This document shows, in pieces, positions 26,938 through 51,889 of a stretch of DNA of 64,000 nucleotides. Position 1 is the first letter of the stretch; each line of letters starts with the position of its first letter. This stretch comes from an uncultured Gammaproteobacteria bacterium (GTDB lineage Bacteria; Pseudomonadota; Gammaproteobacteria; UBA9214), in contig CAVPAE010000007.1 in assembly GCA_963701455.1 (NCBI GenBank), positions 223,761 through 287,760 of the forward strand. The letters are read 5' to 3'. A program made the translations under genes and the position numbers. The notes under the pieces were generated by a model. The model saw only the letters and a list, made by a program, of their open reading frames with translations, was not told the origin of the DNA and did no database searches.

Positions 26938-28553
26938 TCAGAAGTCAGCCCGGTAGCCCAGGTTAATAAAATAGCTGTTGCTCTCTTCAGAGCCATCAAC
27001 AATTTCGCGGTCCGAATATTCCCCCCCGATTTCGGCTTCCAGGCGCAGCCTGCGCTTGATCCGATAGTCCAGCCGCAGTGACGGGCGGTAGGTGATCTGG
27101 TCCGTGCCGTCATCCCGGTTATTGCTGTAATCCATTCTGAAGCGTGGGTTGACCCGAAATTCACTGGTGACGGGATATCGCGTATTTAAATTCAGGGAAT
27201 AGATATCCCTGTTGCCCGCATCGGAATAACGCAGACCTGCTATCGTAATATCACCCGGCTTTACCAGATTGCTTCCGACGAGTTGCAGGTTGTAAACAAA
27301 ATCGGTGCCTGTTCCATCCGTCGCCGCAACACCACCTGAAGCGCTGGTACCAGAAAGGTTAAATGCCGTGACATCACCGCTTACCTGCAGTTTTTCGGTT
27401 ATTGGATGCGACACGCCCAGGGTCGCAAGCTTGCTGGTTGCCGTGCGATCACGCGCCAGATCCTGAATTTCACTGGCTGCAAGGCTGTTCTGCAGCTCAT
27501 CGATTGAGCTGACAGCCTGGCCCACCAGCGCATTCCGGCTCGTAAGGATCGGACTCCTTCTGTAATCTGCGACCACGTTGACCGTGGTCTTGTCCGAGAA
27601 TGTCCAGTTCCCGAGCAGCTGCCCGATATTCAGTTCGTTGTAATGTATGTCGTAGTCGACGAGACTGAAAAACGAACGAGCGGCGTCAAAATATCTGAGC
27701 TCACCACCAACCGCACGACGATCTGTGATTCCATCCACCTGCTGCTCGATAACAAAGGCATTTGCATCCCACCCCTTCGCAAACCCTTCAGTCTCGAGAG
27801 TCAACCCATAGAAGTATCTGTCCGTACCTTCGAAAGCATCAGTCGATGATTCTACCGGGAATCCGCCAACCGCACTCACCGAGAACTTTTTGCCCAAAGG
27901 GACCCCCAGCAACAGGCCGTCAAAGCGCCCCAATACTCCTCCGGTACTGCGGGACTGTCGTCCGATTCGCATGGACATGTCGCTCTGTGTTGAGCTGGCA
28001 TCAAAGTACAGTCGAACTCACAGTGGTATCAGTGTTAGCACCGTCATCAATAAAGTCATGCAAATAGCCACCGGTAAAGCGGGCCTGTAGATTGTAGTCG
28101 CTACCGCGCAGCCGGGCAGTGACATCCATATTGCTGTCCAGAGATGACTGGGTCAGCGTCGTGAGTTCATTGTCATCATCAATATTGGTTGTATTCTCAT
28201 TACGCCGGTAGTACTGGGAAACTCCACCGAACACATCCCACTGCGACTCCGCTTCATTACGCGACTTGCTCCGGGTTGTGCCCAGTTTCTCCCTGGGCTG
28301 TTTTCTGGCAGTCATCAGGGCCGCAAAACGTTGTTTGACACGTTCAGCACCCTCTCCTTCCGGGTAACGCTCAAGATAAGTCCTGTATACCAGTTCTCGC
28401 CTGCGCCAGCTGGTCGTTGCGTTCACGGGCCAGTCCCAGGTATTCCAGGGAATCCTGGCTGTACTGGTTATCGGGCTGCTCCAGAATCTTGGTATATAGC
28501 CTGATTGCCCCGGCATAGTCCTTGTCGGTCATATTGTTACGCGCCTCCTGCAC
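26938..28553 (-). pseudogene. TPR-domain + outer-membrane beta-barrel protein, interrupted by at least 2 frameshifts (may merge with the upstream SPOR-like ORF)
   Basis: C-terminus ends ...GYRADF, an aromatic terminal residue typical of OM beta-barrels. Alternating beta-strand pattern throughout 26938-28516. A one-base shift near 28003-28020 joins ...SSTVL to FDASSTQSDMSMRIG.... A shift near 28385 joins ...LGLARERNDQLAQAR to RELVYRTYLERYPEG... (TPR). Confidence 0.55.
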
Positions 28554-29572
28554 CAGGGAAGCAAGTCGCTCCGGCGTGACAACATTGCCCGCAGCAACTT
28601 CACGCGGAACAACGACTGCAGACGCGTAGTCGCCTCTGGTTGGGCTGTTGTGCCCGCACCGGATCCGGACAGGTTACCGGCGAGCATGGATTCACCGGAA
28701 CGGGTCCTTTCTGCTACTGATGCTTTGGCAACCCAGGAATCCGGGTAATAGGCCTTGAGTTCTTCCCTGACAATATCTGCTTGCTGCACCTTCCTGAAAA
28801 ACCCGAATCGCAGCCGGTACCATGTCTTGCCGTCCTTGACAAAGGTGGTGGTGTAAACGCGATATGCCTGGGATTCACCAGGATCTGGCAAATCCATGAA
28901 TACTTCCGGATCAGGCAAATCATTTACCTCGAACGGCGTGACTGATGAGGCCAGATTAATAACATAAGGATAGAGCGTGGCAGTGGTCGCCGCCTCCACC
29001 GGGACTTCCGTATTGGCAGCAGTCGCTTCAGTCATGATCGCGACAGGTGTTGTCGAATCGCTATCAGGCCGGTTTCCCGGCCCCGCGTGAAGTACGTCTT
29101 CCACTGCAGACGCACCCGGATTTCCCCTGCTTTGCGGATGCTTTACAACTACATCGATGGTCCTGAAATCTCCTGAACGAGGTATCTCGAATTCCACCTC
29201 CTTCTGAAAGCGCAAGGTAATGCTTGTATTCGCGAATCCGGCGCCTTCGTAGGTCACGTCGTACAATGGCATATCTCTGTCCGGACTCCACTGTATCGTC
29301 TGCTCCCCCAGCAATGTATCCCCGGCAGAGCCGAGTGACGGGGCCGGTTCCACAAAGATGCGCAGCAGATCACCGGATCGTTCCGGCGCATGTGATTTGT
29401 AGCTCACCGGAATGGTAAGCCTGATATGGATAGTCGACTGATCCCGGCCAGGTGTGATATCGATGCTGTCGATAACATCAATGGCGGCCTGCGCTCCCGT
29501 AGTAACCGGCACACAACATATAACGCATAACAGCCGCGCGAACCTCGCCATGCCGTGAAATATATTTTTCAT
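28529..29572 (-). CDS. periplasmic protein with SPOR-like domain; 3' end uncertain (probable frameshift into TPR frame near 28640-28680)
   Basis: Signal peptide MKNIFHGMARFARLLCVICCVPVTTGAQA. SPOR-like segment KTWYRLRFGFFRKVQQADIVREELKAYYPDSWV. The alternative frame past 28680 reads protein-like (...VVVPREVAAGNVVTPERLASLVQEARNNMTDKDYAG...). Confidence 0.5.
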   Translation of the reverse strand: MKNIFHGMARFARLLCVICCVPVTTGAQAAIDVIDSIDITPGRDQSTIHIRLTIPVSYKSHAPERSGDLLRIFVEPAPSLGSAGDTLLGEQTIQWSPDRDMPLYDVTYEGAGFANTSITLRFQKEVEFEIPRSGDFRTIDVVVKHPQSRGNPGASAVEDVLHAGPGNRPDSDSTTPVAIMTEATAANTEVPVEAATTATLYPYVINLASSVTPFEVNDLPDPEVFMDLPDPGESQAYRVYTTTFVKDGKTWYRLRFGFFRKVQQADIVREELKAYYPDSWVAKASVAERTRSGESMLAGNLSGSGAGTTAQPEATTRLQSLFRVKLLRAMLSRRSDLLPWCRRRVTI

Positions 29573-30060
29573 TCGCTGACAGGGTCCACAACCGGTTGCT
29601 GCTGGACTTCCGGCGCAACCTCGTCCACATAAACCACGATACTGCGAGAATCCCTGCCCTGTTCCACCCAGAAATCGACACAACGATTGAAGAACAGGGT
29701 CAGATACGGACCACCTTCGATATCTCCCTCATAAACCACCTCGTCGAGCGGCAGGTTTTCATAGTCGAAGGGAACGAGAGTTTCCCGCTTGTGCAAGGCA
29801 TTCAGGTCATCCGCGCTGATCCCAAAAGGCCTGATCCTGATACGCAGTTCCTTGCCAGACTCATACGGGAAGTGGCTGTCATACCTTACCCGCGTTGTCA
29901 GACTGACCTGCACTGTCGTCACAGCATCGGTCTCGTACACATCCAGGGTATCGAGTATTTTCTTTCTGACCGGCTCGGAATCCACCAGCTGCGTGAATAG
30001 GAGCACGCCAAGCGCCAGCAAGATTCCGGCTCGTGCTTTTCGTCCAGGCATCTGCATCAC
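29569..30060 (-). CDS. secreted hypothetical protein (163 aa)
   Basis: Signal peptide (MMQMPGRKARAGILLALGVLLFT). Its stop overlaps the downstream start as ATGA at 29569-29572. Confidence 0.5.
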   Translation of the reverse strand: MMQMPGRKARAGILLALGVLLFTQLVDSEPVRKKILDTLDVYETDAVTTVQVSLTTRVRYDSHFPYESGKELRIRIRPFGISADDLNALHKRETLVPFDYENLPLDEVVYEGDIEGGPYLTLFFNRCVDFWVEQGRDSRSIVVYVDEVAPEVQQQPVVDPVSE

Positions 30061-30070
30061 TGCACCTCCG

Positions 30071-33000
30071 TCAGAAATCGCTACTGGTTGTACGGTGCTC
30101 AGGCCCGGGGCGACGGTCCTTGATCGTCGTCATGCTGCTGTCCGTATACATATGACAGCTTCCCGAACAGTCCCTCAACTCGCTGACACTGTAGGTCGTA
30201 TCGGGATTCTCGTATTTCTTGTGTGCGCTCTGCTTGAAATCATTCGCATGACACGCTGCACAATCCGGCACATACGCAGGTGCCGACCAGTTCACTACCT
30301 CACTGTTTGCCTGGTGACACGCAGTACAGAGAAGATTACTTCTGTGGTCTCCCGGATATGACGCCGAGGTATGCTGGAAATCCAGTGGCACCCAGTAAGA
30401 CGTCGTATGACATGCGTCGCACTGTAAACTGGTGACGAAGTGCCCGCCGGGCTTGCCGGTTGCCGTTGTACCGTTATGACAATTCGAGCATGAACCCGTG
30501 ACTTGGTCGTGATTAAAGCTGGCCGGCAGCCATGCGATAGTCGAATGGCATTCATCGCATTGCGCCGACGTGATGACATGTCCGGATGGCTTTCCGGTTG
30601 AGGTAACCCCGTTGTGGCAGGTAGTACATGTTCCGGGGGTCACATTGGCATGATCGAATACCGCCGGCAGCCAGGCGCTCGTGCTGTGACAGTCATCGCA
30701 GGTGTTGTTGCTGGCGATGTGGTTGACCGACTTGCCGGGCGCCGTGCTGCCATCGTGGCAGCTGAAGCAGGTCCCCAGCACGTCGGCATGGTCCACCCGG
30801 GTCACCGGTAGCCAGGCGCTCGTGCTGTGACAGTCATCGCACAGCGCCGTGGTCTGGATATGGGTACTGTTCTTGCCCGTGGCCGTGGTGCCGTCGTGGC
30901 AGCTCGCGCAGTTGCCGCTCACCGTGCTGTGATCGAAGGTCGCCGGTAGCCAGGCGCTCGTGCTGTGACAGTCATCGCAGGTGTTGTTGCTGGCGATGTG
31001 ATTGGCCGTCTTGCCGGGCGCCGTGCTGCCATCGTGGCAGCTGAAGCAGGTCCCCAGCACGTCGGCATGGTCCACCCGGGTCACCGGCAGCCAGCTACTG
31101 GTGCCGTGGCAGTCCTCGCACAACGCCGTGGTCTGGATGTGGGTCGGGTTCTTGCCCGTGGCCGTGGCACCGTCATGACAGCTCGCGCAGTTGCCGCTCA
31201 CCGTGCTGTGATCGAAGGTCGCCGGCAGCCAGGCACTCGTGCTGTGACAGTCATCGCAGGTGTTGTTGCTGGCGATGTGGTTGACCGACTTGCCGGGCGC
31301 CGTGCTGCCGTCGTGGCAGCTGAAGCAGGTCCCCAGCACGTCGGCATGGTCCACCCGGATCACCGGCAGCCAGCTACTGGTGCCGTGGCAGTCCTCGCAC
31401 AACGCCGTGGTCTGGATGTGGGTCGGGTTCTTGCCCGTGGCCGTGGCACCGTCATGACAGCTCGCGCAGTTGCCGCTCACCGTGCTGTGATCGAAGGTCG
31501 CCGGCAGCCAGGCACTCGTGCTGTGACAGTCATCGCAGGTGTTGTTGCTGGCGATGTGGTTGACCGACTTGCCGGGCGCCGTGCTGCCATCGTGGCAGCT
31601 GAAGCAGGTCCCCAGCACGTCGGCATGGTCCACCCGGGTCACCGGGATCCAGCTGCTGGTGCCGTGGCAGTCCTCGCACAGCGCCGTGGTCTGGATATGG
31701 GTACTGTTCTTGCCCGTGGCCGTGGTGCCGTCGTGGCAGCTCGCGCAGTTGCCGCTCACCGTGCTGTGATCGAAGGTCGCCGGTAGCCAGGCGCTCGTGC
31801 TGTGACAGTCATCGCAGGTGTTGTTGCTGGCGATGTGGTTGGCCGTCTTGCCGGGCGCCGTGCTGCCATCGTGGCAGCTGAAGCAGGTCCCCAGCACGTC
31901 GGCATGGTCCACCCGGGTCACCGGCAGCCAGCTACTGGTGCCGTGGCAGTCCTCGCACAACGCCGTGGTCTGGATGTGGGTCGGGTTCTTGCCCGTGGCC
32001 GTGGCACCGTCGTGACAGCTCGCGCAGTTGCCGCTCACCGTGCTGTGATCGAAGGTCGCCGGTAGCCAGGCGCTCGTGCTGTGACAGTCATCGCAGGTGT
32101 TGTTGCTGGCGATGTGATTGGCCGTCTTGCCGGGCGCCGTGCTGCCATCGTGGCAGCTGAAGCAGGTCCCCAGCACGTCGGCATGGTCCACCCGGGTCAC
32201 CGGCAGCCAGCTACTGGTGCCGTGGCAGTCCTCGCACAGCGCCGTGGTCTGGATATGGGTACTGTTCTTGCCCGTGGCCGTGGTGCCGTCGTGGCAGCTC
32301 GCGCAGTTGCCGCTCACCGTGCTGTGATCGAAGGTCGCCGGCAGCCAGGCGGTGGTGCTGTGACAGTCCTCGCAGGTCGCGGCACTGGGGATGTGGTTCG
32401 TACTCTTGCCGATGGCGGTGGCACCGTCGTGGCAGCTCACGCAGGTCCCCAGTACCTCGGCATGATCGACCTGGATCGCCGGCAGCCAGGCCGTCGTCTG
32501 GTGGCAGGCCTCGCAGATCGTCGTGGTCTGGATGTGGGTCGGATTCTTGCCGGTGGCCGCGGTGCCGTCGTGACAGCTCGCGCAGTTGCCGCTCACCGTG
32601 CTGTGATCGAAGGTCGCCGGTAGCCAGGCGCTCGTGCTGTGACAGTCATCGCAGGTGTTGTTGCTGGCGATGTGGTTCGCACTCTTGCCGATGGCGGTGG
32701 CACCGTCGTGGCAGCTCACGCAGGTCCCCAGCACCTCGGCATGATCGACCTGGATCGCCGGCAGCCAGGCCGTCGTCAGGTGGCAGGCCTCGCAGATCGT
32801 CGTGGTCTGGATGTGGGTACTGTTCTTGCCGGTGGCCGCGGTGCCGTCGTGGCAGCTCGCACAGTTACCGGTGACGTTGCTGTGGTCGAAGGTCGCCGGC
32901 AGCCAGGCGGTGGTGCTGTGACAATCCTCGCAGGTCGCGGCACTGGGGATGTGGTTCGTACTCTTGCCGATGGCGGTGGCACCGTCGTGGCAACTCACGC

Positions 33001-33808
33001 AGGTCCCCAGTACCTCGGCATGATCGACCTGGATCGCCGGCAGCCACGCCGTCGTCAGGTGGCAGGCCTCGCAGACCGTGCTGGTCTGGATGTGTGAGCG
33101 GCGCTTGCCCGTGGCAACGATGCCGTCATGGCAGCTCGAACAGGCACCAGTGATATTGGCATGGTCGAAACTCGCATTCGCCCAGGCGATGGTGGTATGG
33201 CAATCCTCGCAGGTATCGGCACTCGGAACGTGGTGATTCGACTTACCTGTGGCCGTAGCACCATCATGGCAACTTGAGCATGTAGCGGTAACATTACTGT
33301 GATCGAAGGTCGCAGTTGTCCAGGCAGTTGTGGTATGGCAGTCCTCGCAAGTATCGGCACTTGAGATATGATTGGTGGTCTTGCCGGTCGATGTTGATCC
33401 ATCATGACAAGTTGCGCAGGATCCAATAACTGCATCGTGACTCATGTTAGCCAGTGGTTTCCAGTACGCATCCGTATGACATTCTTCACAAACAAGGTTC
33501 GTCTGGATATGATCAGACGGCATCTTGTCTGCCGGCATCGAGCTGGCCTGGTTGTGACAAACCCCGCATTCAACCGGTGTTCCCTCAAATATTCCACGCA
33601 GGTGACAACTCGTACAGGGTGCATTTTTATGCGCGCCTTCAAGCGGGAATCCTGTAGAAAAATGATCAAACCCGGCATTGGTTCCGAGCGCCATCACACC
33701 ATGTGACAGCAAGAACAGGAAACAGACAAACAGGAACATAACAGTCGCAGGCCGGCGGATTTCCCTCGACCCGGCCATTGACATGGTGACTTGTTGTTTA
33801 GGCTTCAT
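30071..33808 (-). CDS. giant c-type cytochrome with about 50 heme-binding motifs (49 CxxCH + 1 CX3CH)
   Basis: Signal peptide ...FLFLLSHGVMA. My hand count gives 49 CxxCH plus CSGSCH near the C-terminus. About nine tandem 93-aa tetraheme modules, with one extra His per heme (FDHS, THIQ, VDHA, NHIA). Start taken at ATG 33808 (MKPKQQ); ORF ATG 33847 is an alternative. Confidence 0.85.
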   Translation of the reverse strand: MKPKQQVTMSMAGSREIRRPATVMFLFVCFLFLLSHGVMALGTNAGFDHFSTGFPLEGAHKNAPCTSCHLRGIFEGTPVECGVCHNQASSMPADKMPSDHIQTNLVCEECHTDAYWKPLANMSHDAVIGSCATCHDGSTSTGKTTNHISSADTCEDCHTTTAWTTATFDHSNVTATCSSCHDGATATGKSNHHVPSADTCEDCHTTIAWANASFDHANITGACSSCHDGIVATGKRRSHIQTSTVCEACHLTTAWLPAIQVDHAEVLGTCVSCHDGATAIGKSTNHIPSAATCEDCHSTTAWLPATFDHSNVTGNCASCHDGTAATGKNSTHIQTTTICEACHLTTAWLPAIQVDHAEVLGTCVSCHDGATAIGKSANHIASNNTCDDCHSTSAWLPATFDHSTVSGNCASCHDGTAATGKNPTHIQTTTICEACHQTTAWLPAIQVDHAEVLGTCVSCHDGATAIGKSTNHIPSAATCEDCHSTTAWLPATFDHSTVSGNCASCHDGTTATGKNSTHIQTTALCEDCHGTSSWLPVTRVDHADVLGTCFSCHDGSTAPGKTANHIASNNTCDDCHSTSAWLPATFDHSTVSGNCASCHDGATATGKNPTHIQTTALCEDCHGTSSWLPVTRVDHADVLGTCFSCHDGSTAPGKTANHIASNNTCDDCHSTSAWLPATFDHSTVSGNCASCHDGTTATGKNSTHIQTTALCEDCHGTSSWIPVTRVDHADVLGTCFSCHDGSTAPGKSVNHIASNNTCDDCHSTSAWLPATFDHSTVSGNCASCHDGATATGKNPTHIQTTALCEDCHGTSSWLPVIRVDHADVLGTCFSCHDGSTAPGKSVNHIASNNTCDDCHSTSAWLPATFDHSTVSGNCASCHDGATATGKNPTHIQTTALCEDCHGTSSWLPVTRVDHADVLGTCFSCHDGSTAPGKTANHIASNNTCDDCHSTSAWLPATFDHSTVSGNCASCHDGTTATGKNSTHIQTTALCDDCHSTSAWLPVTRVDHADVLGTCFSCHDGSTAPGKSVNHIASNNTCDDCHSTSAWLPAVFDHANVTPGTCTTCHNGVTSTGKPSGHVITSAQCDECHSTIAWLPASFNHDQVTGSCSNCHNGTTATGKPGGHFVTSLQCDACHTTSYWVPLDFQHTSASYPGDHRSNLLCTACHQANSEVVNWSAPAYVPDCAACHANDFKQSAHKKYENPDTTYSVSELRDCSGSCHMYTDSSMTTIKDRRPGPEHRTTSSDF
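30500..33050. repeat. tandem array of about nine 279-bp units (93-aa tetraheme modules) inside the 50-heme cytochrome gene, several copies near-identical at DNA level
   Basis: Identical antisense ORF peptides recur at 31260, 31539 and 31818 (279-bp spacing). 30965 and 32081 share peptide text 1116 bp (4 x 279) apart. This is coding, not a CRISPR array. Confidence 0.85.
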
Positions 33809-33861
33809 ATGCTGTTCTGTTTCCTGAATTAGCAATACCCGGAACACCGGAAATAGCGCCC

Positions 33862-35445
33862 TTACCTGATTTCCACCACGTCAAACGATTCCGTCGTGTG
33901 GCAACGATCGCAATACTTCCCAAACTCTCCGTCATGCACATCCTCCTGGCGATGACAGGAAACACAGGTACCTGGCAGCCTGATTTCTCCTGTTATTTCC
34001 TCAACGTGACAGGACAGACAATCAATATCCTGATGCGCACCATCCAGTTCGTAATTCGTGTGAACGTTGTGTTCAAACTCCCACAAAGACCAGTCATTCG
34101 GGTTATGACACGACTCACAGCGCGGGCCCAAGCGGCGTTCATGCACATCATCCGGCTGATGACAAACATTGCATTCACGTGCCGCCTGTTTGTATGCCGA
34201 TGTCAGATGGCACTCCTCGCACGGGGTAACCGCATGCAAACCGAGAAGCGGGAAATCGGTCATATCGTGTTCGAAACGCACCTTCCCGCCCCAGCCATCC
34301 TCGTCATGGCATTTCTCACAACGCTTGCCCTCCTGGCCCTCGTGCACATCATCCGCTCCATGACAACTGAAACATTCCGTTGCAAGTTTTTCCTCGTAAA
34401 CCTCACCCCTGTGACAGGATGAGCAACTGGCTTCCTGATGCTTCCCGCGCAATGGAAACTCCGTTTCCCGATCATGCTCGTACTTCACCTTGTCCCAGCC
34501 ACGCGTGCTGTGGCAGGCCTGGCATTTATTCCCGTATCGGCCAGCGTGCTTGTCGTCACCGCGATGACAGTCGATACATTCCGTGCCCAGTGCCGTGTCA
34601 TACAGTTTCCCCACATGGCAGACATCGCACTTCACTTCCCGGTGACTTCCGGAAAGCGAATATCCCGTATCACGATCATGATCGAACCGGGAGCGGTCCC
34701 AGCCTGCCTCTGAATGACAGTCTTTGCATTTCTGCCCGTAACGACCGGCATGCACATCATTCAGCCTGTGGCAGGTATGGCATTCCCCGGGGATATCCTT
34801 GTATTTGTGATTGACGTGGCAACTGTCACAGGCCAGTTCTGCATGCTTTTCCCGAAGCACGAAATCCGTGTCGTCGTGGTTGAATTCCTGGCTGGTCCAA
34901 CTGCGCTCGGCATGGCAATCCGCACACTGCTCACCAAGCCTGCCTGCATGAATGTCGTCTCCCTCATGGCATGAGACGCACTCCTGCGGCGCATCGCGGA
35001 ATTTTTTCCCTTCAGCGTGGCAGGCTGCACAACGCGTCGCAATATGCGCACCCTTTAGCAAGTAATCCGTTTCATCATGTGCAAAGGTTTCAACATCCAG
35101 CTGGACTACGTCTGCATCGCGACCCTTGTGATCGCTATGGCAATGACTGCACTCTGCATTCCTTGCCACTCCCAACCCGTGGAAACCTGTCTGCTGCCGA
35201 ATATCTGCATCGACTTCCTCGTGACAGTCCCGGCACAGCATGCTTTGGCTCTCCTTGCTGAAGGGCTTGTGGCACTTTTCACACTCTTCCTCGTATTTCA
35301 TGTGCCCCTCTATCACCTGCCCCGGTTTGACCAGTGATTCGATTCCTGCAAACACAGTCGAACCGAAGCACATAGCCGCCACAAAGAGGGTGGCGGCAAT
35401 ACAAATCCGGTACCGTTTCACAGTGACTTTTCTTGCATGGGCCAT
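33862..35445 (-). CDS. 21-heme c-type cytochrome (7 x tri-heme repeat)
   Basis: Signal peptide MAHARKVTVKRYRICIAATLFVAAMCFGSTVFA. 21 CxxCH motifs in a repeating CxxCH-x~15-CxxCH-xxDDxHxGxxGxxCxxCH-x4-W-x5-FxH pattern. Its start shares one nucleotide with the upstream stop (TGATG at 35443-35447). Confidence 0.85.
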   Translation of the reverse strand: MAHARKVTVKRYRICIAATLFVAAMCFGSTVFAGIESLVKPGQVIEGHMKYEEECEKCHKPFSKESQSMLCRDCHEEVDADIRQQTGFHGLGVARNAECSHCHSDHKGRDADVVQLDVETFAHDETDYLLKGAHIATRCAACHAEGKKFRDAPQECVSCHEGDDIHAGRLGEQCADCHAERSWTSQEFNHDDTDFVLREKHAELACDSCHVNHKYKDIPGECHTCHRLNDVHAGRYGQKCKDCHSEAGWDRSRFDHDRDTGYSLSGSHREVKCDVCHVGKLYDTALGTECIDCHRGDDKHAGRYGNKCQACHSTRGWDKVKYEHDRETEFPLRGKHQEASCSSCHRGEVYEEKLATECFSCHGADDVHEGQEGKRCEKCHDEDGWGGKVRFEHDMTDFPLLGLHAVTPCEECHLTSAYKQAARECNVCHQPDDVHERRLGPRCESCHNPNDWSLWEFEHNVHTNYELDGAHQDIDCLSCHVEEITGEIRLPGTCVSCHRQEDVHDGEFGKYCDRCHTTESFDVVEIR

Positions 35446-36413
35446 CAGTACATGTGCACGGCATACACATGGACAAGACCGGCAATCAAAAGCATGATGA
35501 AGAGAGGCAGATGGAGAACGTGCCACATGGAAAACAACCGCTCGAAGAATGAAAAGCCGGCCACCTTGCGGACCGTATACAGGTATGTGCGCAGGTAATA
35601 CCCTGCCTTGCGGTAATAATAGCGGCGTTGCTCTCGAGTCAGTCTCTCGCGAACAATCGGTGTCCTGAAGAATCGGCGCAACTCCAGCAGGGATACCAGC
35701 AGGCACCAGCGTGATCTGATGTTGATCACCAGCATACTGACCAGGCAAGAGAGAAAGCCGTTTTGGGTTGCCACCGCCTTGTCTTCAATACGCTGCAGCC
35801 GGACCTTCATTCCCGGCATTTCCTTGAAGACGGGTCCGAGTTCCGCCATGGCCATTGCTGTATCGCTGCCCAGATCCTCAAGATCTGCTTTTCGGCCATA
35901 CAGACCGTAGTGGACTTTTGAATATATAAATCTGCCGATCAGGCCACTGCCGGCAACCAGCAGCATACTGAACAGGGCGACATTCCCGTTTATGGAACCG
36001 AGCTGGAAGTTACAATGCAGGAGAATACAAACAGGCCCCAGGATACCCAGCAACATGTGCCCCCTGAACCAGTGGCGCACCGGTCCGAAGCCCTGTGCCC
36101 AGCGCGCATGCTTGCGTAGCGGATACAGCATGAGCAACAGCATCATCGTGCCTCCTGTTATACCAAGGGCATAACCGATACCTAGCTCCGGTGTGAGATA
36201 AAGGTAACTGCCATACTTCCATCCGCAATACACAAGCAGCAGGACCAACAGGTGGAAGACCGGTAACTCCGGAACCCGGGAAGACCTCTCACGTCCCTCA
36301 TTATCCCGTTTGATAATGGGTTCATTTGCAGGGTCCTGAGGGTATCCCGCGACGCCTGCGGCTTGAGTTATCGAGTTCTTGTCAATATCAAAAACAGTCT
36401 GTACTTCACTCAT
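35445..36413 (-). CDS. polytopic membrane protein with conserved His in TM helices; putative b-type cytochrome / quinol-interacting subunit
   Basis: About 6 TM helices. His residues sit in TM1 (FHLL), TM3 (HWFRGHMLLG...LLHCNF) and TM6 (MWHVLHLP...LVHVYAVHMY). Translationally coupled to the 21-heme gene. Start at MSEVQ (36413); ATG 36503 is an alternative. Confidence 0.5.
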   Translation of the reverse strand: MSEVQTVFDIDKNSITQAAGVAGYPQDPANEPIIKRDNEGRERSSRVPELPVFHLLVLLLVYCGWKYGSYLYLTPELGIGYALGITGGTMMLLLMLYPLRKHARWAQGFGPVRHWFRGHMLLGILGPVCILLHCNFQLGSINGNVALFSMLLVAGSGLIGRFIYSKVHYGLYGRKADLEDLGSDTAMAMAELGPVFKEMPGMKVRLQRIEDKAVATQNGFLSCLVSMLVINIRSRWCLLVSLLELRRFFRTPIVRERLTREQRRYYYRKAGYYLRTYLYTVRKVAGFSFFERLFSMWHVLHLPLFIMLLIAGLVHVYAVHMY

Positions 36414-36766: not shown

Positions 36767-38068
36767 ATGACCGATACCGCACTTTATTTCTATCTGACCC
36801 CGATGCTGTTCATCTGGGGCATTTACTATGGATTTCGCACCAGGAGGCATCGCCGCGCCACCCGCTTGCGCGATGACGCACAAAAGTCCGGTCTTCTGGC
36901 TCCGGCATCACTCCACCCCGTGATAGATTCATGCCGCTGCCTGGGTTGTCGGTCCTGCGTAAGCGCCTGCCCGGAAAAATCAGTACTGGGAATTATTGAT
37001 AGCAAATCCGTGCTGGTCAGCCCTGCCAACTGCATCGGGCACGGCGCATGCAAAACCGCCTGCCCGATGAACGCAATCACACTGGTGTTTGGCACATCCG
37101 AACGCGGCGTCGATATTCCACTGGTTGCTCCCGACTACGAGACCAATGTTCCCGGTCTTTTTATTGCCGGAGAACTGGGCGGGATGGGGCTGATTCGCAA
37201 CGCCGTTGAACAGGGCCGTCAGGCAATGGCATCCATCATCGAGCACTGTCGGAAGGGAAACAGGCAGGAACTGGATGTCGTAATCGTCGGCGCCGGACCC
37301 GCGGGTCTTTCAGCCAGCCTGGCCGCACAGGAAAGCGGCCTGCGCTACGCAACACTCGAACAGGATTCTCTCGGGGGAACGGTATCCCATTTCCCGCGAG
37401 GAAAAATTGTCATGACAGCTCCTGTAAAGCTACCCCAGGTCGGCACAGTTAAATTCAGGGAGATATCCAAGGAAGCACTGCTGGAATTCTGGGAGGACGT
37501 CATCAGGAAGACAGGCGTGCAGATCATATTCAGGGAACGCGTTGAAGCCATCACGCCTCTTGCAGGAGGACTAGAAGTCAGGACTCCCGGGAATGTCTAT
37601 CGCACCAAATGCGTCCTGCTCGCGATTGGCCGGCGCGGCACACCGCGCAAGCTGGATGTGCCTGGCGAAGAATCAACAAAAGTCGTCTACCGGCTGATAG
37701 ATCCAGAGCAATACCGCAATCAGAAAGTACTGGTTGTCGGGGGTGGAGACAGCGCCCTGGAGGCCGCGATAAGTATTGCCGAGCAGCCCGGCACGGATGT
37801 CAGCCTGTCTTATCGCAGCGCTGCATTTTCCCGCGCCAAGGAAAAGAACCGGCAGAAGATTGATGACTTGAACAATTCAGGCCGCTTGAAAGTCTTCCTG
37901 AATTCCACGGTCAGCGAAATACATGAGAACAGGGTAGAAATAGACCAGCAAGGCAACATGATTGATATCGGGAATGATGCCGTGATCGTCTGTGCCGGTG
38001 GCATTTTACCTACACCCTTCCTGAAAGAAATCGGCGTCGAGGTGGAAACAAAATATGGCACGCAGTAA
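36767..38068 (+). CDS. membrane-anchored 4Fe-4S ferredoxin-domain + FAD/NAD(P)-binding pyridine nucleotide-disulfide oxidoreductase-like protein
   Basis: N-terminal TM helix. Two Cys clusters (CRCLGCRSCVSACP and CIGHGACKTACP). Two Rossmann GxGxxG motifs (VVIVGAGPAG, VLVVGGGDSA). Confidence 0.7.
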   Translation: MTDTALYFYLTPMLFIWGIYYGFRTRRHRRATRLRDDAQKSGLLAPASLHPVIDSCRCLGCRSCVSACPEKSVLGIIDSKSVLVSPANCIGHGACKTACPMNAITLVFGTSERGVDIPLVAPDYETNVPGLFIAGELGGMGLIRNAVEQGRQAMASIIEHCRKGNRQELDVVIVGAGPAGLSASLAAQESGLRYATLEQDSLGGTVSHFPRGKIVMTAPVKLPQVGTVKFREISKEALLEFWEDVIRKTGVQIIFRERVEAITPLAGGLEVRTPGNVYRTKCVLLAIGRRGTPRKLDVPGEESTKVVYRLIDPEQYRNQKVLVVGGGDSALEAAISIAEQPGTDVSLSYRSAAFSRAKEKNRQKIDDLNNSGRLKVFLNSTVSEIHENRVEIDQQGNMIDIGNDAVIVCAGGILPTPFLKEIGVEVETKYGTQ

Positions 38069-40145
38069 GACGATTACCGGATTCTGCAGCCACGGACCGT
38101 TATTACGCTCCTGTTCAGCCATTGCTGCATGTCTGCTGTTTGCCTGCCTCTTCGCACCATCTGCCGCCGCCACCGGGGAGTTTGATGAAATACGCGCCGC
38201 CATCCGGGTGCGTGACTTTGGAAAGGCCATCCCCCTGCTTGAAACCCTGGCAAGCTCGGGCAACCCCGACGCCCAGTATCAACTTGCCGCCTTGTATCGC
38301 GCAGGCTCCGGCGTTGCAAAGGATCACGAAACCGCATTTTACTGGCTGGACAAGGCCGCACACCGGAATCACAGGCAGGCCCAGTACAACCTGGGCGTTA
38401 TGTATGAATATGGATGGGGAACGCTGGCAAGCGCGGCAGCTGCAGCCGACTGGTATGAAAAGGCCGCCGCACAGGGCCACCCGATGGCGCAGGAAAAGCT
38501 TAACGAGAGTGATATAGCCGCACGCCGCACAAGAGATAATACGCGGCCTGGCGAAGCACCCGACCCGGACCTGTTACTGCGGCGGGCCGTGACAAGGGGC
38601 GATGCGCGGTCGGCCAGTGAAGCCATCAAGGCCGGCGCCAATGTGGATGCAACTGACAAATACGGCAGAACCGCGCTCATTGATGCCGCCGAACAGGGAT
38701 TTACTGAAATCGTCGAGCTGTTGATAAGCAATAATGCCGACATCAACCACGAGGATGCCTATCGCAACAGCGCACTGCTCCTGGCAACCGGCAATGGCCA
38801 TTCCGATACGGTCAGGAAACTGCTCACTGCCAATGCAGACAGCAACGCCACGGACACAAATGGCAACACCCCGTTGATGATCGCGAGTGGAAGGAATGAT
38901 GTAGAGATTGTCCGGGCATTGATAGCACAGGGCGCACGCCTTTACGGGAAAAACACCACGGGTGATTCTGCCGCTGATATCGCGGCCCGCAAGCGGCATG
39001 CTGAGATACTGAAAATCCTGCAGGCGCGTGGCGCCAATCCTGAAAAGCATTTTGCCCAGAAGAAGGCGACGATCGCCAAACGCCTTGCCATGCAGAATCC
39101 TGACCCGGCATCCGGATCCGGTGGCAAGGAATCATCACAGCCATATGCAGGCTGGTCAGCGCTGATGGAGTCTGCCTGGCGCGGCCAGGAAGAAATCGTC
39201 CGGGAACTGCTGGACCGGGGCGTCGATATCAATAGCAGGGATGATCAGGGCCACACTGCCCTGACGCGCGCAGCCAGCAAGGGGAACAGCAAGATTGTGC
39301 AGCTGTTACTGGAAGCCGGCGCCGATACCGGTGTCACCCGTGACGATGGCATGACCTTGCTCATGCTGGGCACTGCATCGGGTGATGCCGACACGGTCAC
39401 GTTGCTGCTTGCAAGGGAGCGCAATATCAACGCAAGGGATACCGATGGTTGCACTGCCCTCTGCTACTCGGTCCGCAACGGTGACACGGATATTGCCAGC
39501 CTGCTGTTGCAGCATGGTGCCGACAGCAACCTGGCTCTGAATGACGGCAGGACGGTCCTGATGCTGGCGGCTGAAATGGACACACCGGAGATACTGGCTC
39601 TGCTGCTCGCAAACGCACCCGCGGTCAACCAGCCGGACAAGACCGGCCTGACTGCCTTGTCATACGCGGTTATCAAGGGACACGAAAAGAATGCGCGCAT
39701 GCTGCTGGAGCATGGCGCGAAGCCAAACATCAGCGACTCGAAAAAGCGCACCCCGCTTACGCTTGCCGCCACGGGTAAAAACACAAATATTGTCGACCTG
39801 CTGATCAAGCACCGGGCTGACATCGCAACAAGCACCAGCGATGGTAATACGCCGCTTATTCTTGCAGCCAATTCCGGGAATACTGCCATCGCCGGCCGTC
39901 TGATAAAAGCAGGAGCAGATATCAATGTGCGCAACAATAATGGAAACACAGCCCTGATGCTTGCTGCCGCAAACAATCATGTCGACATCGTCAGGATCCT
40001 GCTGGAAACCGGCGCCAGGGCGGGAATCAGGAACAACAATCGCAAAAGCGCCAGCGACCTGGCCGAGGCCTCGGGAAATACGGAAACACTTGCCGTCCTT
40101 GAAAAGCACCGCAGTAGCGGGCTATGGTCATCCAGCTGGTTCTGA
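38055..40145 (+). CDS. secreted Sel1-repeat + ankyrin-repeat (about 15 ANK) protein
   Basis: Signal peptide. Sel1-like units (AQYQLAALYRAGSGVAKD, AQYNLGVMYEYGWG). Then repeated G.TALM.AA..G...IV..LL..GA..N units through the C-terminus. Overlaps the upstream gene by 14 nt. Confidence 0.8.
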   Translation: MARSKTITGFCSHGPLLRSCSAIAACLLFACLFAPSAAATGEFDEIRAAIRVRDFGKAIPLLETLASSGNPDAQYQLAALYRAGSGVAKDHETAFYWLDKAAHRNHRQAQYNLGVMYEYGWGTLASAAAAADWYEKAAAQGHPMAQEKLNESDIAARRTRDNTRPGEAPDPDLLLRRAVTRGDARSASEAIKAGANVDATDKYGRTALIDAAEQGFTEIVELLISNNADINHEDAYRNSALLLATGNGHSDTVRKLLTANADSNATDTNGNTPLMIASGRNDVEIVRALIAQGARLYGKNTTGDSAADIAARKRHAEILKILQARGANPEKHFAQKKATIAKRLAMQNPDPASGSGGKESSQPYAGWSALMESAWRGQEEIVRELLDRGVDINSRDDQGHTALTRAASKGNSKIVQLLLEAGADTGVTRDDGMTLLMLGTASGDADTVTLLLARERNINARDTDGCTALCYSVRNGDTDIASLLLQHGADSNLALNDGRTVLMLAAEMDTPEILALLLANAPAVNQPDKTGLTALSYAVIKGHEKNARMLLEHGAKPNISDSKKRTPLTLAATGKNTNIVDLLIKHRADIATSTSDGNTPLILAANSGNTAIAGRLIKAGADINVRNNNGNTALMLAAANNHVDIVRILLETGARAGIRNNNRKSASDLAEASGNTETLAVLEKHRSSGLWSSSWF

Positions 40146-42233: not shown

Positions 42234-42917
42234 TCAAAGTAAAGAAGGATCTCTCCGGGGATCGGTCTGTCTTGTCAATGCCTGGTATTCACGCACCAGG
42301 TCACCGGCACTCGCAAAACCCTCCATGCGAACCCAGCCTGTTTGCGGTGCAGCATGCATGAATGTCAACGGTATGTGATTCATCTTGTCGCGCCGGTATG
42401 CATCAAAAGCTTTCAGCACCGCCACGATGTCTTCACGATCCCCGGTCAGAAACGTCCAGCCTGTGCTGGCCTGGAAACGCTGCGCATATTCCCGAAGTTT
42501 TGCCGGAGTATCATGCTCAGGATCGATGGTAACTGAGATCATTCGAACATTATCCGCTTCAGGACCAAGGGCCTTCCGGGTCTGGGTAAAGCTGGCACTC
42601 AGGACCGGACAGATAGTTGTGCACGTGGTAAATATAAAATTCAGCATCACCGGCTCATTACCCTCCAGCATGTCGTGCAGGGAAACCTTCCTGCCGTCCT
42701 GATCGGTCAGTACGACATCGGGCACCTGGTATTCCTGTTCCTTGCGGACATAGCCCTTTTGCTGCAGCATCTGCCTGTGCTGCGAATGATCAACTCCATG
42801 CTGGTGCATATGGTGGGCAGCATCTCCGTCATCCAGGGCATGACCGGACGATGCCATGCCGAACGTAACCAGCAGGCCCATCATCCTGCCCGCAAACCTT
42901 ATTTTGTTATTCAGCAT
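42234..42917 (-). CDS. SCO1/SenC-family thioredoxin-like copper chaperone
   Basis: Membrane anchor, His-rich stretch (HHMHQHGVDHSQH), CxxxCP motif (FTTCTTICP), DPEHDT motif. Start at MLNNKIRF (42917). Confidence 0.8.
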   Translation of the reverse strand: MLNNKIRFAGRMMGLLVTFGMASSGHALDDGDAAHHMHQHGVDHSQHRQMLQQKGYVRKEQEYQVPDVVLTDQDGRKVSLHDMLEGNEPVMLNFIFTTCTTICPVLSASFTQTRKALGPEADNVRMISVTIDPEHDTPAKLREYAQRFQASTGWTFLTGDREDIVAVLKAFDAYRRDKMNHIPLTFMHAAPQTGWVRMEGFASAGDLVREYQALTRQTDPRRDPSLL

Positions 42918-42985
42918 GTCGTATTCTCCTTTTGTAATAACGTCCCTGCTTGTTGATATTCCCCGCGGCAGAGCCACAGCCGCTT

Positions 42986-44707: not shown

Positions 44708-44742
44708 TAATCGCCTGAGCAGTTACCTGTATTCTAGGAGTC

Positions 44743-44908
44743 TCTGAACAAGTCCCGACTCGTCATTCCGGCGCATGCCGGACAAAAGCGCAAGGCGCGT
44801 TGAACGCCCGGAGGGCGGCCCGCAGGGTGAGCGAAGCGAAGCATCCTGGAAATCAACAAGCTGGACCCCGGCTTTCGCCGGGGTGACGACTTATTCAGGA
44901 TTTCCTTG
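44743..44908 (+). repeat. ~167-bp interspersed repeat family C, full copy
   Basis: About 90% identical to 46618-46784. Contains the hairpins cattccggcgcatgccgg and ccccggctttcgccgggg. Confidence 0.85.
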
Positions 44909-44919
44909 ATTCATTATCG

Positions 44920-46596: not shown

Positions 46597-46617
46597 CAGA
46601 ATCACCTTGAGGAGAAA

Positions 46618-46784
46618 CTGAACAAGTCCTGATCCGTCATTCCGGCGCATGCCGGACAAAAGTGCATGGCGCGTTGAACGCCCGGAGGGCGGCCCGCAGG
46701 GCGAGCGAAGCGAGTCATCCAGGGAAATCAACAAGCTGGACCCCGGCCTTCGCCGGGGTGACGACTTATTCAGGGTTTCCTTGA
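46618..46784 (+). repeat. ~167-bp interspersed repeat family C, full copy
   Basis: Direct repeat of 44743-44908. The two copies flank the protease gene. Confidence 0.85.
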
Positions 46785-46804
46785 GCTTCAGGCTTTTCAT
46801 GGCA

Positions 46805-47308
46805 TCACTCCACAACGATGTGCTCTTGCCTGAAGTCACCGATCACCAGGGTGACCTGATCTCCAGCCTTGACGGCACGGCCGGGATTGGCAAAGAACAT
46901 AAAATAGTTCCGGTCCACCTTGGCAAACTTCGGTGCCTGGCGCAGCGGCCCGATCTTGGCCGAGACCGGCACCTGCAGCTTGTGGCCGTTTTTTTCCACG
47001 ATCAGCTGCGGTTTAATCTTGCGGTCCATGATGGCAGCGGCCTTTTCCGGGTCCAGCATCCGGAACCGGAAATCCAGCATGTAATCAGCCGCGGTCCGGC
47101 GGATCCCGATGACACGTATCCCCCAGGGATCTCCGGGGTCTGCCTGTTCCTGCTCAGCAACGTTCGGCACTGCGACACTTGTTGCAAAGACCAGCTGTCC
47201 TGGCATAAACATGAACGCAAGCCCCAGCACCACCAGCAGGGCTACCGCGATTTGTACGGTATGGACGCATACCCCCAAGGTGATCCGCCTGGTCTGAGTC
47301 TGTTGCAT
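46805..47308 (-). CDS. membrane-anchored periplasmic hypothetical protein (167 aa)
   Basis: A single TM helix (IAVALLVVLGLAFMF) then a soluble domain. Lies between the MCO-like triad and the protease. Confidence 0.45.
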   Translation of the reverse strand: MQQTQTRRITLGVCVHTVQIAVALLVVLGLAFMFMPGQLVFATSVAVPNVAEQEQADPGDPWGIRVIGIRRTAADYMLDFRFRMLDPEKAAAIMDRKIKPQLIVEKNGHKLQVPVSAKIGPLRQAPKFAKVDRNYFMFFANPGRAVKAGDQVTLVIGDFRQEHIVVE

Positions 47309-47420
47309 GGTTTTATTCCCCTTCAGTCGTGATCAAACAATAGTCCGATCTCTCTACCAGTTCGTCAGTCATTGCAAGCAGTGGCGGGTACCTCCCCCAC
47401 TGGAGAGGTACCCGGAGCAC

Positions 47421-49244: not shown

Positions 49245-49265
49245 GTCTATTCCCCCGCCCTGCGT

Positions 49266-50540: not shown

Positions 50541-50568
50541 GGACTTATCCCCCGGTTCCGGTCTGTTG

Positions 50569-51828: not shown

Positions 51829-51889
51829 TGGTCTATCCTCCTGTGTGCCCCGGGGTGGAGGCATCCCACCCCGGAACGCTAGCCCTTGG

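What the first reader, a model, noticed from the sequence alone, without database searches (positions are those of the whole stretch)
33862..36413. Translationally coupled His-rich membrane protein + 21-heme periplasmic cytochrome (Cbc-like quinol:cytochrome module)
The His pattern in TM1, TM3 and TM6 of the 322-aa membrane protein is what di-heme b-type anchors look like. Its stop overlaps the start of a signal-peptide-bearing 21-heme protein made of seven copies of a tri-heme unit (CxxCH-x15-CxxCH-xxDDxHxGxxGxxCxxCH). Established knowledge: Geobacter CbcL and Cbc-type complexes couple a b-type anchor to a periplasmic multiheme c subunit to move electrons between the quinone pool and the periplasm. 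Inference: this pair may do the same at the entry or exit of the conduit.
Basis: partly seen in the sequence, partly recalled or inferred. Interest (0 to 1): 0.7.

Follow-up and report, generated by a model that had tools for sequence, protein, structure and literature searches.

The report
PCC3 inner-membrane and periplasmic cytochrome pair
The gene pair is real but already described: it is the inner-membrane protein and 21-heme periplasmic cytochrome of the untested "PCC3" electron conduit, here almost always linked to an NAD(P)H-type iron-sulfur flavoprotein gene, which suggests an electron source other than quinones.

Summary
On the minus strand, a 322-aa membrane protein (36413..35445) ends in TGATG, overlapping the start of a 527-aa cytochrome (35445..33862). 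That cytochrome has a signal peptide and 21 CxxCH motifs in seven triheme c7-type units. One detail is wrong. The TM1 histidine (H54) is not conserved. The conserved pattern is W-x3-H-x13-H on TM3 and on the last helix (TM5), plus SGxxG on TM4.

This is the inner-membrane protein (IMP) signature of the "PCC3" porin-cytochrome cluster (He et al. 2017, PMC5566968). All four components are homologous to Sideroxydans lithotrophicus ES-1 Slit_1446-1449. The Cbc comparison is an analogy only. There are no Pfam or NCBIfam hits, no detectable similarity to MsrQ or YodB, and fold searches are non-specific. PCC3 function has never been tested.

One result appears to be new. In 73 of 75 informative related loci, a membrane-anchored 2x[Fe-S] + YpdA/TrxR-like flavoprotein gene and a periplasmic ankyrin/Sel1 gene sit beside the IMP. 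The Gallionellaceae clusters lack both genes.

I favour a di-heme b relay fed by this flavoprotein (0.45) over quinone coupling (0.35).

Verdict: new member of a known, uncharacterised kind.

The parts
35445..36413 (-). PCC3 inner-membrane protein (IMP), 322 aa. It has 5 TM helices, N-terminus in and C-terminus out. Putative heme-b ligands are H119/H301 on the cytoplasmic side and H133/H315 on the periplasmic side. SGxxG is on TM4. A cytoplasmic helical bundle spans about 177-292.
   Evidence: ORF and start. No Pfam/NCBIfam hit. Motif conservation in 28, 94 and 152 homologs. Positive-inside topology. AlphaFold model with pLDDT 76.6 overall and 80-90 outside the N-terminus. 34% identity, E 6e-60, to the S. 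lithotrophicus ES-1 PCC3 IMP.
33862..35445 (-). PCC3 periplasmic multiheme cytochrome, 527 aa. It has a signal peptide and 21 CxxCH motifs in seven c7-type triheme units.
   Evidence: 42% identity, E 2.5e-146, to the 24-heme Slit_1447 ortholog. 21 hemes in 57 of 71 orthologs.
30071..33847 (-). PCC3 'extracellular' giant multiheme cytochrome, up to 1258 aa, with 49 CxxCH. It contains a 279-bp tandem repeat of 8.9 copies (30651-33138). The likely start is an ATG at 33808 or 33784.
   Evidence: 27% identity, E 1e-52, to the 28-heme ES-1 protein.
29569..30060 (-). 163-aa secreted protein with no family hit. It is paralogous to the N-terminal domain of the porin-like protein. Its stop overlaps the next start (ATGA).
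   Evidence: Conserved in many loci.
26938..29572 (-). PCC3 porin-like outer-membrane gene (SPOR/TPR N-terminal part plus a C-terminal presumed barrel; intact ortholog 869 aa). In this window it is broken by at least 3 frameshifts.
   Evidence: tblastn of the L001 ortholog switches frame. Frame inspection. The ortholog is 31% identical, E 5e-65, to a Gallionellaceae PCC3 porin. The C-terminal piece is 28% identical, E 2.7e-39, to the ES-1 porin.
36767..38068 (+). Divergently transcribed, membrane-anchored Fe-S flavoprotein, 433 aa. It has an N-terminal TM helix, a CxxCxxCxxxCP motif, a CxxHxxCxxxCP motif, and a YpdA/thioredoxin-reductase-like FAD/NAD(P)H domain.
   Evidence: Pfam. PDB 7a76 and 7a7b, E 3e-25 and 8e-23. 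NCBIfam Bthiol_YpdA E 6e-46, below its curated cutoff. Cys/His conservation in 111 homologs. Present next to the IMP in 73 of 75 loci.
38055..40145 (+). Periplasmic Sel1 + ankyrin-repeat protein, 696 aa, with a signal peptide. Its start overlaps the flavoprotein gene by 14 nt.
   Evidence: Pfam. N-terminus. Syntenic in most loci.

Best explanation
The pair is the inner half of a PCC3-type porin-cytochrome conduit.

The 322-aa protein is a five-helix, di-heme b-type membrane cytochrome. One heme sits near the cytoplasmic face (H119 + H301) and one near the periplasmic face (H133 + H315). It carries electrons across the cytoplasmic membrane. On the periplasmic face it exchanges them with the 21-heme c7-polymer. 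At about 25 residues per heme, that polymer can act as a periplasm-spanning wire towards the 49-heme protein and the outer-membrane barrel.

On the cytoplasmic face, in this clade, I propose that the partner is the adjacent membrane-anchored flavoprotein. The path would be NAD(P)H -> FAD -> two Fe-S clusters (one ligated by 3 Cys and 1 His) -> inner heme b. The IMP's conserved cytoplasmic helical bundle may serve as the docking site. The system would then export electrons outward and bypass the quinone pool, as NOX/FRE/STEAP do and as MsrQ does with its cytosolic NADH oxidoreductase.

Shown here: the gene anatomy, the conserved motifs, homology to PCC3, and the synteny with the flavoprotein.
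Inferred: heme b binding, the direction of electron flow, and the flavoprotein-IMP contact.

Confidence is about 0.8-0.9 for the shared core (PCC3 member, di-heme b relay plus multiheme wire). It is 0.45 for the flavoprotein-fed version stated here.
For: - PCC3 identity. The IMP, periplasmic cytochrome, giant cytochrome and porin are each homologous to S. lithotrophicus ES-1 Slit_1446-1449. The gene order matches.
- IMP motifs. W-x3-H-x13-H occurs twice and SGxxG once, exactly as He et al. defined. They are 96-100% conserved in 152 representatives.
- Topology. The positive-inside rule places both H-x13-H helices parallel, with the 127-aa basic domain in the cytoplasm. The model shows five TM helices and a confident cytoplasmic bundle.
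- Flavoprotein linkage. It is present in 73 of 75 informative loci across Gammaproteobacteria, Alphaproteobacteria, Nitrospirota and Deltaproteobacteria/Thermodesulfobacteriota. It lies in three different arrangements: 62 divergent, 9 co-directional upstream, 2 downstream.
- Flavoprotein anatomy. It has an N-terminal anchor followed by RTRRHRR, invariant Fe-S ligands including H92, and GxGxxG/A motifs. Its closest solved relatives are NADPH flavoenzymes.
- Precedent. MsrQ receives electrons from a cytosolic NADH oxidoreductase, and the earlier quinone-donor assumption was contradicted (PMC12525009).
- In ES-1, PCC3 genes go down on Fe(II) compared with thiosulfate, which argues against the default 'iron oxidase feeding quinone' model (PMC8788666).
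Against: - Gallionellaceae PCC3 clusters (ES-1 L086, L083) and locus L055 have no flavoprotein or ankyrin gene within 10 kb. Their IMPs still keep the same cytoplasmic domain. The flavoprotein is therefore not a universal neighbour.
- No IMP-flavoprotein fusion appeared among ten longer homologs checked.
- No heme b, flavin or quinone site can be demonstrated from sequence.
- Sequence and profile comparisons to the ferric reductase domain (FRD) family member MsrQ are negative.
- NAD(P)H-driven export would conserve no energy, which is odd for a machine of about 70 hemes.
- The porin gene in this window is frameshifted, so this copy may not be functional.
Confidence: 0.45

Rival explanations
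1. Quinone-coupled relay, as proposed by the first reader and by He et al. 2017. The IMP is a quinol/quinone-reactive di-heme cytochrome b. It connects the quinone pool to the 21-heme periplasmic wire. Electrons flow either outward (respiration on extracellular acceptors, for example during sulfur oxidation) or inward (uptake from Fe(II), minerals or electrodes). The neighbouring flavoprotein and ankyrin genes would be accessory, for example for regulation, maturation or redox maintenance.
For: - The Gallionellaceae PCC3 clusters work, if they work at all, without an adjacent flavoprotein gene. A partner available in every host is therefore needed, and the quinone pool is the simplest.
- From general knowledge, all characterised Gram-negative extracellular electron-transfer routes (CymA, ImcH, CbcL, CbcBA) start at the quinone pool.
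- Quinol oxidation would allow energy conservation.
- He et al. proposed this model.
Against: - There is no direct evidence for a quinone site.
- The IMP hits no known quinone-reactive cytochrome b family.
- The large, conserved cytoplasmic domain is not expected for a simple quinol dehydrogenase subunit.
- This model does not explain the 73 of 75 linkage to a membrane-anchored NAD(P)H-type Fe-S flavoprotein.
- The same default assumption was made for MsrQ and later contradicted (PMC12525009).
Confidence: 0.35
2. The IMP is not a redox protein. In this view the conserved His bind a metal or serve in transport, signalling or cytochrome maturation (for example heme handling for the 70 c-type hemes encoded downstream). 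The pairing with the cytochrome would then reflect biogenesis, not electron transfer.
For: - No family assignment in any library.
- Fold searches return transporter-like and sensor-like helical bundles.
- Some databases call homologs 'transcriptional regulator'.
- Extra conserved His (H168, H298, H320) lie outside the four-His pattern.
Against: - Two H-x13-H pairs sit at matching depths on two parallel helices. Each is preceded by an invariant Trp and all are 100% conserved. This is a specific di-heme signature.
- Strict adjacency to a multiheme wire within a conduit operon.
- The fold hits are generic, with high rmsd.
- The database names are unsupported by any domain hit.
Confidence: 0.07

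Closest known systems
PCC3 porin-cytochrome gene cluster (He et al. 2017, PMC5566968; S. lithotrophicus ES-1 Slit_0867-0870 and Slit_1446-1449)
   Same: - All four core genes are present in the same order and are homologous one by one.
- The IMP is about 300 aa with 5 TM helices, SGxxG on TM4 and two W-x3-H-x13-H motifs.
- The periplasmic cytochrome has 21 hemes, the median reported for PCC3.
- The giant 'extracellular' cytochrome is repetitive.
- Hosts named in the paper (Bradyrhizobium sp. STM 3843, tubeworm endosymbionts) appear among my related loci.
   Different: - This clade adds a linked Fe-S flavoprotein gene and a periplasmic ankyrin/Sel1 gene. Neither is mentioned in the paper and both are absent from the Gallionellaceae clusters.
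- It also adds a 163-aa secreted protein and a SPOR/TPR N-terminal extension on the porin.
- The giant cytochrome has 49 hemes.
- The porin gene is frameshifted in this window.
   Same: The general logic is shared. A membrane b-type cytochrome is coupled to a periplasm-facing multiheme c partner at the inner-membrane end of an extracellular electron-transfer route.
   Different: - No homology. No hit to Ni_hydr_CYTB or cytochrome b families in any of 94 members.
- The heme ligands are arranged as 2+2 on two helices.
- The c-type partner is a separate, soluble 21-heme c7 polymer.
- Quinone reactivity is unproven.
Ferric-reductase-domain (FRD) superfamily: NOX, FRE, STEAP, MsrQ
   Same: - Two bis-His hemes are stacked across the membrane on two parallel helices with H-x13-H spacing (noted by He et al.).
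- A flavin/NAD(P)H module lies on the cytoplasmic side. It is fused in NOX and separate for MsrQ (PMC12525009).
- Invariant basic residues (R100, K101) sit at the cytoplasmic end of the preceding helix, reminiscent of the MsrQ R77/R78 FMN site. This last point is inference only.
   Different: - No detectable sequence or profile similarity (PF01794 absent; hhalign probability 0.13 or less).
- Five helices rather than six.
- A 127-aa helical bundle is inserted before the last helix.
- The candidate donor carries Fe-S clusters.
Geobacter c7-type polymer cytochromes (e.g. dodecaheme GSU1996; NCBIfam 'nanowire_3heme')
   Same: Tandem triheme c7-type domains form an elongated heme wire. Pfam Cytochrome_C7 matches 7 times.
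   Different: - Seven units rather than four.
- The match to TIGR04257 is below its cutoff (27.4 versus 40 bits).
- No solved relative by sequence at E 0.01 or below.
- Each of the regular units examined carries three extra conserved His, which suggests all-bis-His ligation.
PCC4 inner-membrane proteins (He et al. 2017)
   Same: Five TM helices, SGxxG on TM4, two W-x3-H-x13-H motifs, and in subgroup II an Fe-S protein gene just upstream of the IMP.
   Different: The paper states that the two IMP groups share no significant overall sequence similarity. PCC4 has no extracellular cytochrome and its cytochromes are small.

Membership tests
PCC3 (He et al. 2017) | Conserved inner-membrane protein of about 300 aa with five TM helices | tested here: met
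   322 aa. Hydropathy, the positive-inside rule and the AlphaFold model give 5 TM helices.
PCC3 (He et al. 2017) | SGxxG on TM4 and W-x3-H-x13-H on both TM3 and TM5 | tested here: met
   The motifs are W115-H119-H133, S156-G157-x-x-G160 and W297-H301-H315. They are 96-100% conserved in 152 representatives.
PCC3 (He et al. 2017) | Adjacent periplasmic multiheme cytochrome (median 21 hemes) | tested here: met
   21 CxxCH and a signal peptide, with a 1-base overlap with the IMP gene. 42% identical to the ES-1 periplasmic cytochrome.
PCC3 (He et al. 2017) | Second, very large repetitive multiheme cytochrome (predicted extracellular) | tested here: met
   49 CxxCH and a 279-bp repeat of 8.9 copies. 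Homologous to the ES-1 28-heme protein. Its cellular location was not tested.
PCC3 (He et al. 2017) | Outer-membrane beta-barrel porin gene in the cluster | tested here: inconclusive
   A homolog of the ES-1 and Gallionellaceae porin is present. In this window it is split by at least 3 frameshifts. The barrel fold itself was not modelled.
PCC3 (He et al. 2017) | Acts in extracellular electron transfer | not testable with these tools
   The literature calls PCC3 'functionally unverified' (10.1101/2025.02.27.639646). It is down-regulated on Fe(II) in ES-1 (PMC8788666).
Cbc / CbcL-type quinol:cytochrome complexes | b-type subunit belonging to the HydC/FdnI (Ni_hydr_CYTB) or cytochrome b families | tested here: not met
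   No such Pfam/NCBIfam hit for the window protein at E 1 or below. No such Pfam hit among 94 family members at E 10 or below. hhalign against E. coli YodB (cytochrome b561) gives probability 0.09. The only structural resemblance is to CybB, which is weak.
Cbc / CbcL-type quinol:cytochrome complexes | Quinol oxidation or quinone reduction | not testable with these tools
   There is no sequence signature to test. It requires biochemistry.
Ferric reductase domain superfamily (NOX/FRE/STEAP/MsrQ) | Detectable homology to the FRD transmembrane domain (PF01794) | tested here: not met
Ferric reductase domain superfamily (NOX/FRE/STEAP/MsrQ) | Two H-x13-H (or x12) pairs on two parallel helices that ligate two stacked hemes b | tested here: met
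   H119/H133 and H301/H315 lie on helices of the same orientation. Heme binding itself is untested.
c7-type triheme cytochrome polymers | Tandem cytochrome c7 triheme domains | tested here: met
   PF14522 matches seven stretches, E 7e-31 and 106 bits against a cutoff of 24.8. Unit alignment. NCBIfam nanowire_3heme scores below its cutoff.

The most novel reading that the evidence does not exclude
In this widespread PCC3 clade, found in sulfur-oxidising Gammaproteobacteria (tubeworm symbionts included), Nitrospirota, Alphaproteobacteria and Deltaproteobacteria, the conduit would not be a quinone-linked iron oxidase. It would be a 'split NOX wired to about 70 hemes'. A membrane-anchored NAD(P)H:Fe-S flavoprotein would feed a di-heme b relay, which would push cytoplasmic reducing power straight out of the cell and bypass the quinone pool. 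That would be a new type of inner-membrane entry point for bacterial extracellular electron transfer, and it would reverse the direction usually assumed for PCC3.
Probability: 0.3. Interest if true: 0.75.

Novelty: new member of a known kind. Interest (0 to 1): 0.42.

Why it matters
PCC3 is one of the most widespread predicted electron conduits. The IMP family has relatives in 332 species genomes and 2,246 clusters at 50% identity. No one has shown what PCC3 does or how it connects to metabolism.

The inner-membrane step decides both the direction of electron flow and the energy yield. If that step is quinone-coupled, PCC3 can support respiration or electron uptake. If it is fed by the linked NAD(P)H flavoprotein, PCC3 is an outward electron-export or reductase system. 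In that case its use as an 'iron-oxidation marker' in metagenomes would be misleading.

The conserved flavoprotein/ankyrin module gives a concrete handle that can be tested by genetics.

Tried and rejected
- Family scans. Pfam and NCBIfam scans of the IMP gave nothing at E 1 or below. Scanning all 94 aligned members at E 10 or below gave only noise and a weak DUF4405 match (E about 1, 8 members). I treat that match as a lead, not evidence.
- PDB sequence search with the family profile gave only two chance hits, E about 0.1.
- hhalign of the family profiles against E. coli MsrQ and YodB showed no similarity.
- Rosetta-stone fusions. Ten longer homologs carry TPR or SPOR domains or nothing, never the flavoprotein.
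- A literature search for PCC3 together with flavoprotein or ankyrin terms found nothing.
- Look-up of P0242 failed. P0273 and P0401 worked.
- A cursory look for a sigma-54 promoter upstream of the IMP gene found nothing, and I did not pursue it.
- Rejected: that the 214-243 hydrophobic stretch is a sixth TM helix. The model and the topology parity place it in the cytoplasmic bundle.
- Rejected: that H54 or H102 are ligands. They are conserved in 1% and 13% of representatives.
Full report
**1. What is in the sequence**

Both genes lie on the minus strand. The membrane protein runs 36413..35445 (322 aa, ATG start). Its TGA stop shares one base with the ATG of the next gene (TGATG at 35445).

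The next gene runs 35445..33862 and encodes 527 aa. It has a typical Sec signal peptide and exactly 21 CxxCH motifs. The motifs fall into seven triheme units. Six units are about 67 aa and the first is longer. Pairwise identity between units is 21-49%, and there are about 25 residues per heme. Each of the regular units examined also has three conserved non-motif His, enough for bis-His ligation of every heme. Pfam Cytochrome_C7 matches seven times, E 7e-31.

The operon continues on the same strand with very short gaps or overlaps:
- a 49-CxxCH giant cytochrome (33847..30071);
- a 163-aa secreted protein (30060..29569);
- a porin-like gene starting at 29572.

Its histidine map is not.

**2. The membrane protein**

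It matches nothing in Pfam or NCBIfam at E 1 or below. Yet it belongs to a large family:
- at least 4,097 relatives in the 90%-identity clustered collection;
- 2,246 clusters at 50% identity with E 0.001 or below, 505 of them at 1e-30 or below;
- relatives in 332 species genomes.

I aligned 152 representatives. Conservation at the key positions is:

| Residue(s) | Conservation |
|---|---|
| H119, H133, H301, H315, W297, S156, G157, N142, Y97, K101 | 100% |
| G160 | 99% |
| W115 | 96% |
| H320 | 96% |
| H298 | 95% |
| H168 | 92% |
| H102 | 13% |

Hydropathy and the positive-inside rule give an N-in, C-out topology with five TM helices. The loops 100-115 and 166-292 are basic (4 and 24 K+R) and therefore cytoplasmic. 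The periplasmic loops carry no K or R. H119 and H301 then lie at the cytoplasmic level, and H133 and H315 at the periplasmic level, on two helices of the same orientation. This is the classical geometry for two stacked bis-His hemes b.

An AlphaFold model built from 121 sequences of two clades has pLDDT 76.6 overall and 80-90 outside the disordered N-terminus. It shows five TM helices. TM5 continues as a helix of about 60 residues out of a confident cytoplasmic helical bundle spanning about 177-292.

**3. It is PCC3**

He et al. [quoted passage not shown] They described the IMP as about 300 aa with five TM helices, SGxxG on TM4 and W-x3-H-x13-H on TM3 and TM5. They likened it to the ferric reductase domain (FRD) and to cytochrome b, and proposed that it binds two hemes b and is quinone-active. 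The window protein has exactly these motifs.

I fetched the S. lithotrophicus ES-1 cluster, which has 24 and 28 CxxCH and so corresponds to Slit_1446-1449 according to PMC8788666. Every component is homologous:

| Window component | Identity to ES-1 counterpart | E-value |
|---|---|---|
| IMP | 34% | 6e-60 |
| Periplasmic cytochrome | 42% | 2.5e-146 |
| Giant cytochrome | 27% | 1e-52 |
| Porin, C-terminal part | 28% | 2.7e-39 |

Hosts that the paper names as PCC3 carriers (Bradyrhizobium sp. STM 3843, tubeworm endosymbionts) are among my related loci. Across those loci the periplasmic cytochrome has 21 CxxCH in 57 of 71 complete copies. It lies 60 nt or less from the IMP gene in 68 of 76 loci. 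An actual overlap, as in this window, occurs in only 4.

PCC3 remains 'functionally unverified' (10.1101/2025.02.27.639646). In ES-1 both PCC3 clusters are down-regulated on Fe(II) compared with thiosulfate (PMC8788666). The IMP and the porin are detected in ES-1 proteomes (PMC11429942).

**4. What it is not**

The Cbc/CbcL comparison is functional only.
- No family member hits Ni_hydr_CYTB or cytochrome b models.
- hhalign against E. coli YodB gives probability 0.09.
- The FRD resemblance noted by He et al. stays at motif level. PF01794 is absent. hhalign against MsrQ gives probability 0.13 or less.

**5. What seems new: a linked flavoprotein/ankyrin module**

Two genes are transcribed divergently from the IMP gene.

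The first is a 433-aa protein (36767..38068). It has:
- an N-terminal TM helix followed by RTRRHRR, so its body is cytoplasmic;
- a CxxCxxCxxxCP motif;
- a CxxHxxCxxxCP motif whose His is invariant in 111 homologs;
- a YpdA/thioredoxin-reductase-like FAD/NAD(P)H domain.

Its best solved relatives are PDB 7a76 and 7a7b, E 3e-25 and 8e-23.

The second gene overlaps the end of the first by 14 nt. It encodes a 696-aa Sel1 + ankyrin-repeat protein with a signal peptide.

tblastn across the related loci finds the flavoprotein gene in 73 of 75 informative loci:
- 62 are divergent and immediately upstream (median gap 563 bp);
- 9 are co-directional upstream, in the order flavoprotein, ankyrin, IMP;
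- 2 lie downstream of the cluster.

The hosts span Gammaproteobacteria, Alphaproteobacteria, Nitrospirota and Deltaproteobacteria/Thermodesulfobacteriota. Linkage that survives rearrangement argues for a functional connection. He et al. mention no FAD, ferredoxin, 4Fe-4S or ankyrin component for PCC3, and my literature searches found none.

The exceptions matter. The Gallionellaceae clusters (L083 and ES-1 L086) and locus L055 have neither gene within 10 kb. Their IMPs still keep the cytoplasmic domain.

**6. Mechanism**

The shared core carries about 0.8-0.9 confidence. The IMP is a di-heme b relay across the membrane. It hands electrons to, or takes them from, a periplasm-spanning 21-heme wire.

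The cytoplasmic partner is open. I favour the flavoprotein route at 0.45: NAD(P)H, then FAD, then the Fe-S clusters, then the inner heme. My reasons are:
- the synteny;
- the membrane anchor;
- the His-ligated cluster, a type that in other enzymes often serves as a surface electron exit (general knowledge);
- the family-wide cytoplasmic bundle, which a simple quinol site would not need;
- the MsrQ precedent. For MsrQ, a cytosolic NADH oxidoreductase turned out to be the donor, and the assumed quinone donor was contradicted (PMC12525009).

Electron movement from inside to outside runs with the membrane potential. This route therefore predicts outward export without energy conservation.

It is favoured by the Gallionellaceae clusters that lack the flavoprotein gene, by the weak CybB fold match, by energetic sense, and by the fact that all characterised Gram-negative extracellular electron-transfer routes start at the quinone pool. 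A non-redox role is unlikely (about 0.07).

**7. Verdict**

The finding is real and well described, apart from the histidine and helix map. It is a new member of an already published but uncharacterised kind. The conserved flavoprotein/ankyrin module is the part worth following up. Interest is 0.42 overall, and 0.75 if the NAD(P)H-fed, quinone-independent reading proves true (probability about 0.3).

Noticed in passing
window 26938-29572 (-): The PCC3 porin-like gene has an intact 869-aa ortholog in L001. In this window it is interrupted by at least three frameshifts: two between about 28700 and 28300, and one near 28012. It is either a pseudogene or a local assembly error. If the frameshifts are real, the outer-membrane end of this conduit is inactive in this genome.
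   Followed up: partly
window 30651-33138 (-), inside the 49-heme gene: A 279-bp tandem repeat of 8.9 copies with 91% matches. Each copy encodes a 93-aa unit with four hemes. It looks like a recent expansion and explains why heme numbers of the 'extracellular' PCC3 cytochrome vary so much between genomes.
   Followed up: partly
window 36767-38068 (+), residues 58-99: The second Fe-S motif of the flavoprotein is CxxHxxCxxxCP. The His (H92) is invariant in 111 homologs, implying a cluster with 3 Cys + 1 His ligation (or a 3Fe cluster). The N-terminal hydrophobic helix is also conserved, and nearly all homologs are exactly 433 aa.
   Followed up: partly
window 38055-40145 (+): A Sel1 + ankyrin-repeat protein of 696 aa with a signal peptide. 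Its start overlaps the flavoprotein gene by 14 nt, which suggests translational coupling, and it is syntenic in most related loci. A periplasmic ankyrin protein tied to a multiheme conduit has no obvious role. It might be a scaffold or chaperone for the giant cytochromes.
   Followed up: partly
window 29569-30060 (-): A 163-aa secreted protein with no family hit. It is about 30% identical to the N-terminal domain of the porin-like protein, and its stop overlaps that gene's start (ATGA). It is present in many, but not all, related loci.
   Followed up: partly
window 35445-36413 (-), residues 97-101, 168, 298, 320: Several conserved residues lie outside the four-His pattern. Y97, R100 and K101 sit at the cytoplasmic end of TM2. 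H168 and H298 sit at the cytoplasmic face. H320 sits at the periplasmic end. They might mark a third cofactor site (the flavin-binding R77/R78 of MsrQ is a possible parallel) or docking sites. This is unexplained.
   Followed up: no
databases (P0101, P0108, P0271, P0401): Public annotations of IMP homologs are misleading. They include 'transcriptional regulator', 'pyridine nucleotide-disulfide oxidoreductase' and 'FAD-dependent pyridine nucleotide-disulphide oxidoreductase' (the last for the S. lithotrophicus protein in UniRef). None of these proteins has such a domain.
   Followed up: no
window 42234-52230 (-) and 51890-57070 (-): Upstream lies a copper-related block: SCO1/SenC, a subtilase with a MopE-like Cu-binding motif, and three multicopper-oxidase-like proteins (one with cadherin/Ig domains). 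A 1726-aa ORF there has no Pfam hit. This may be a second extracellular redox system in the same region.
   Followed up: no
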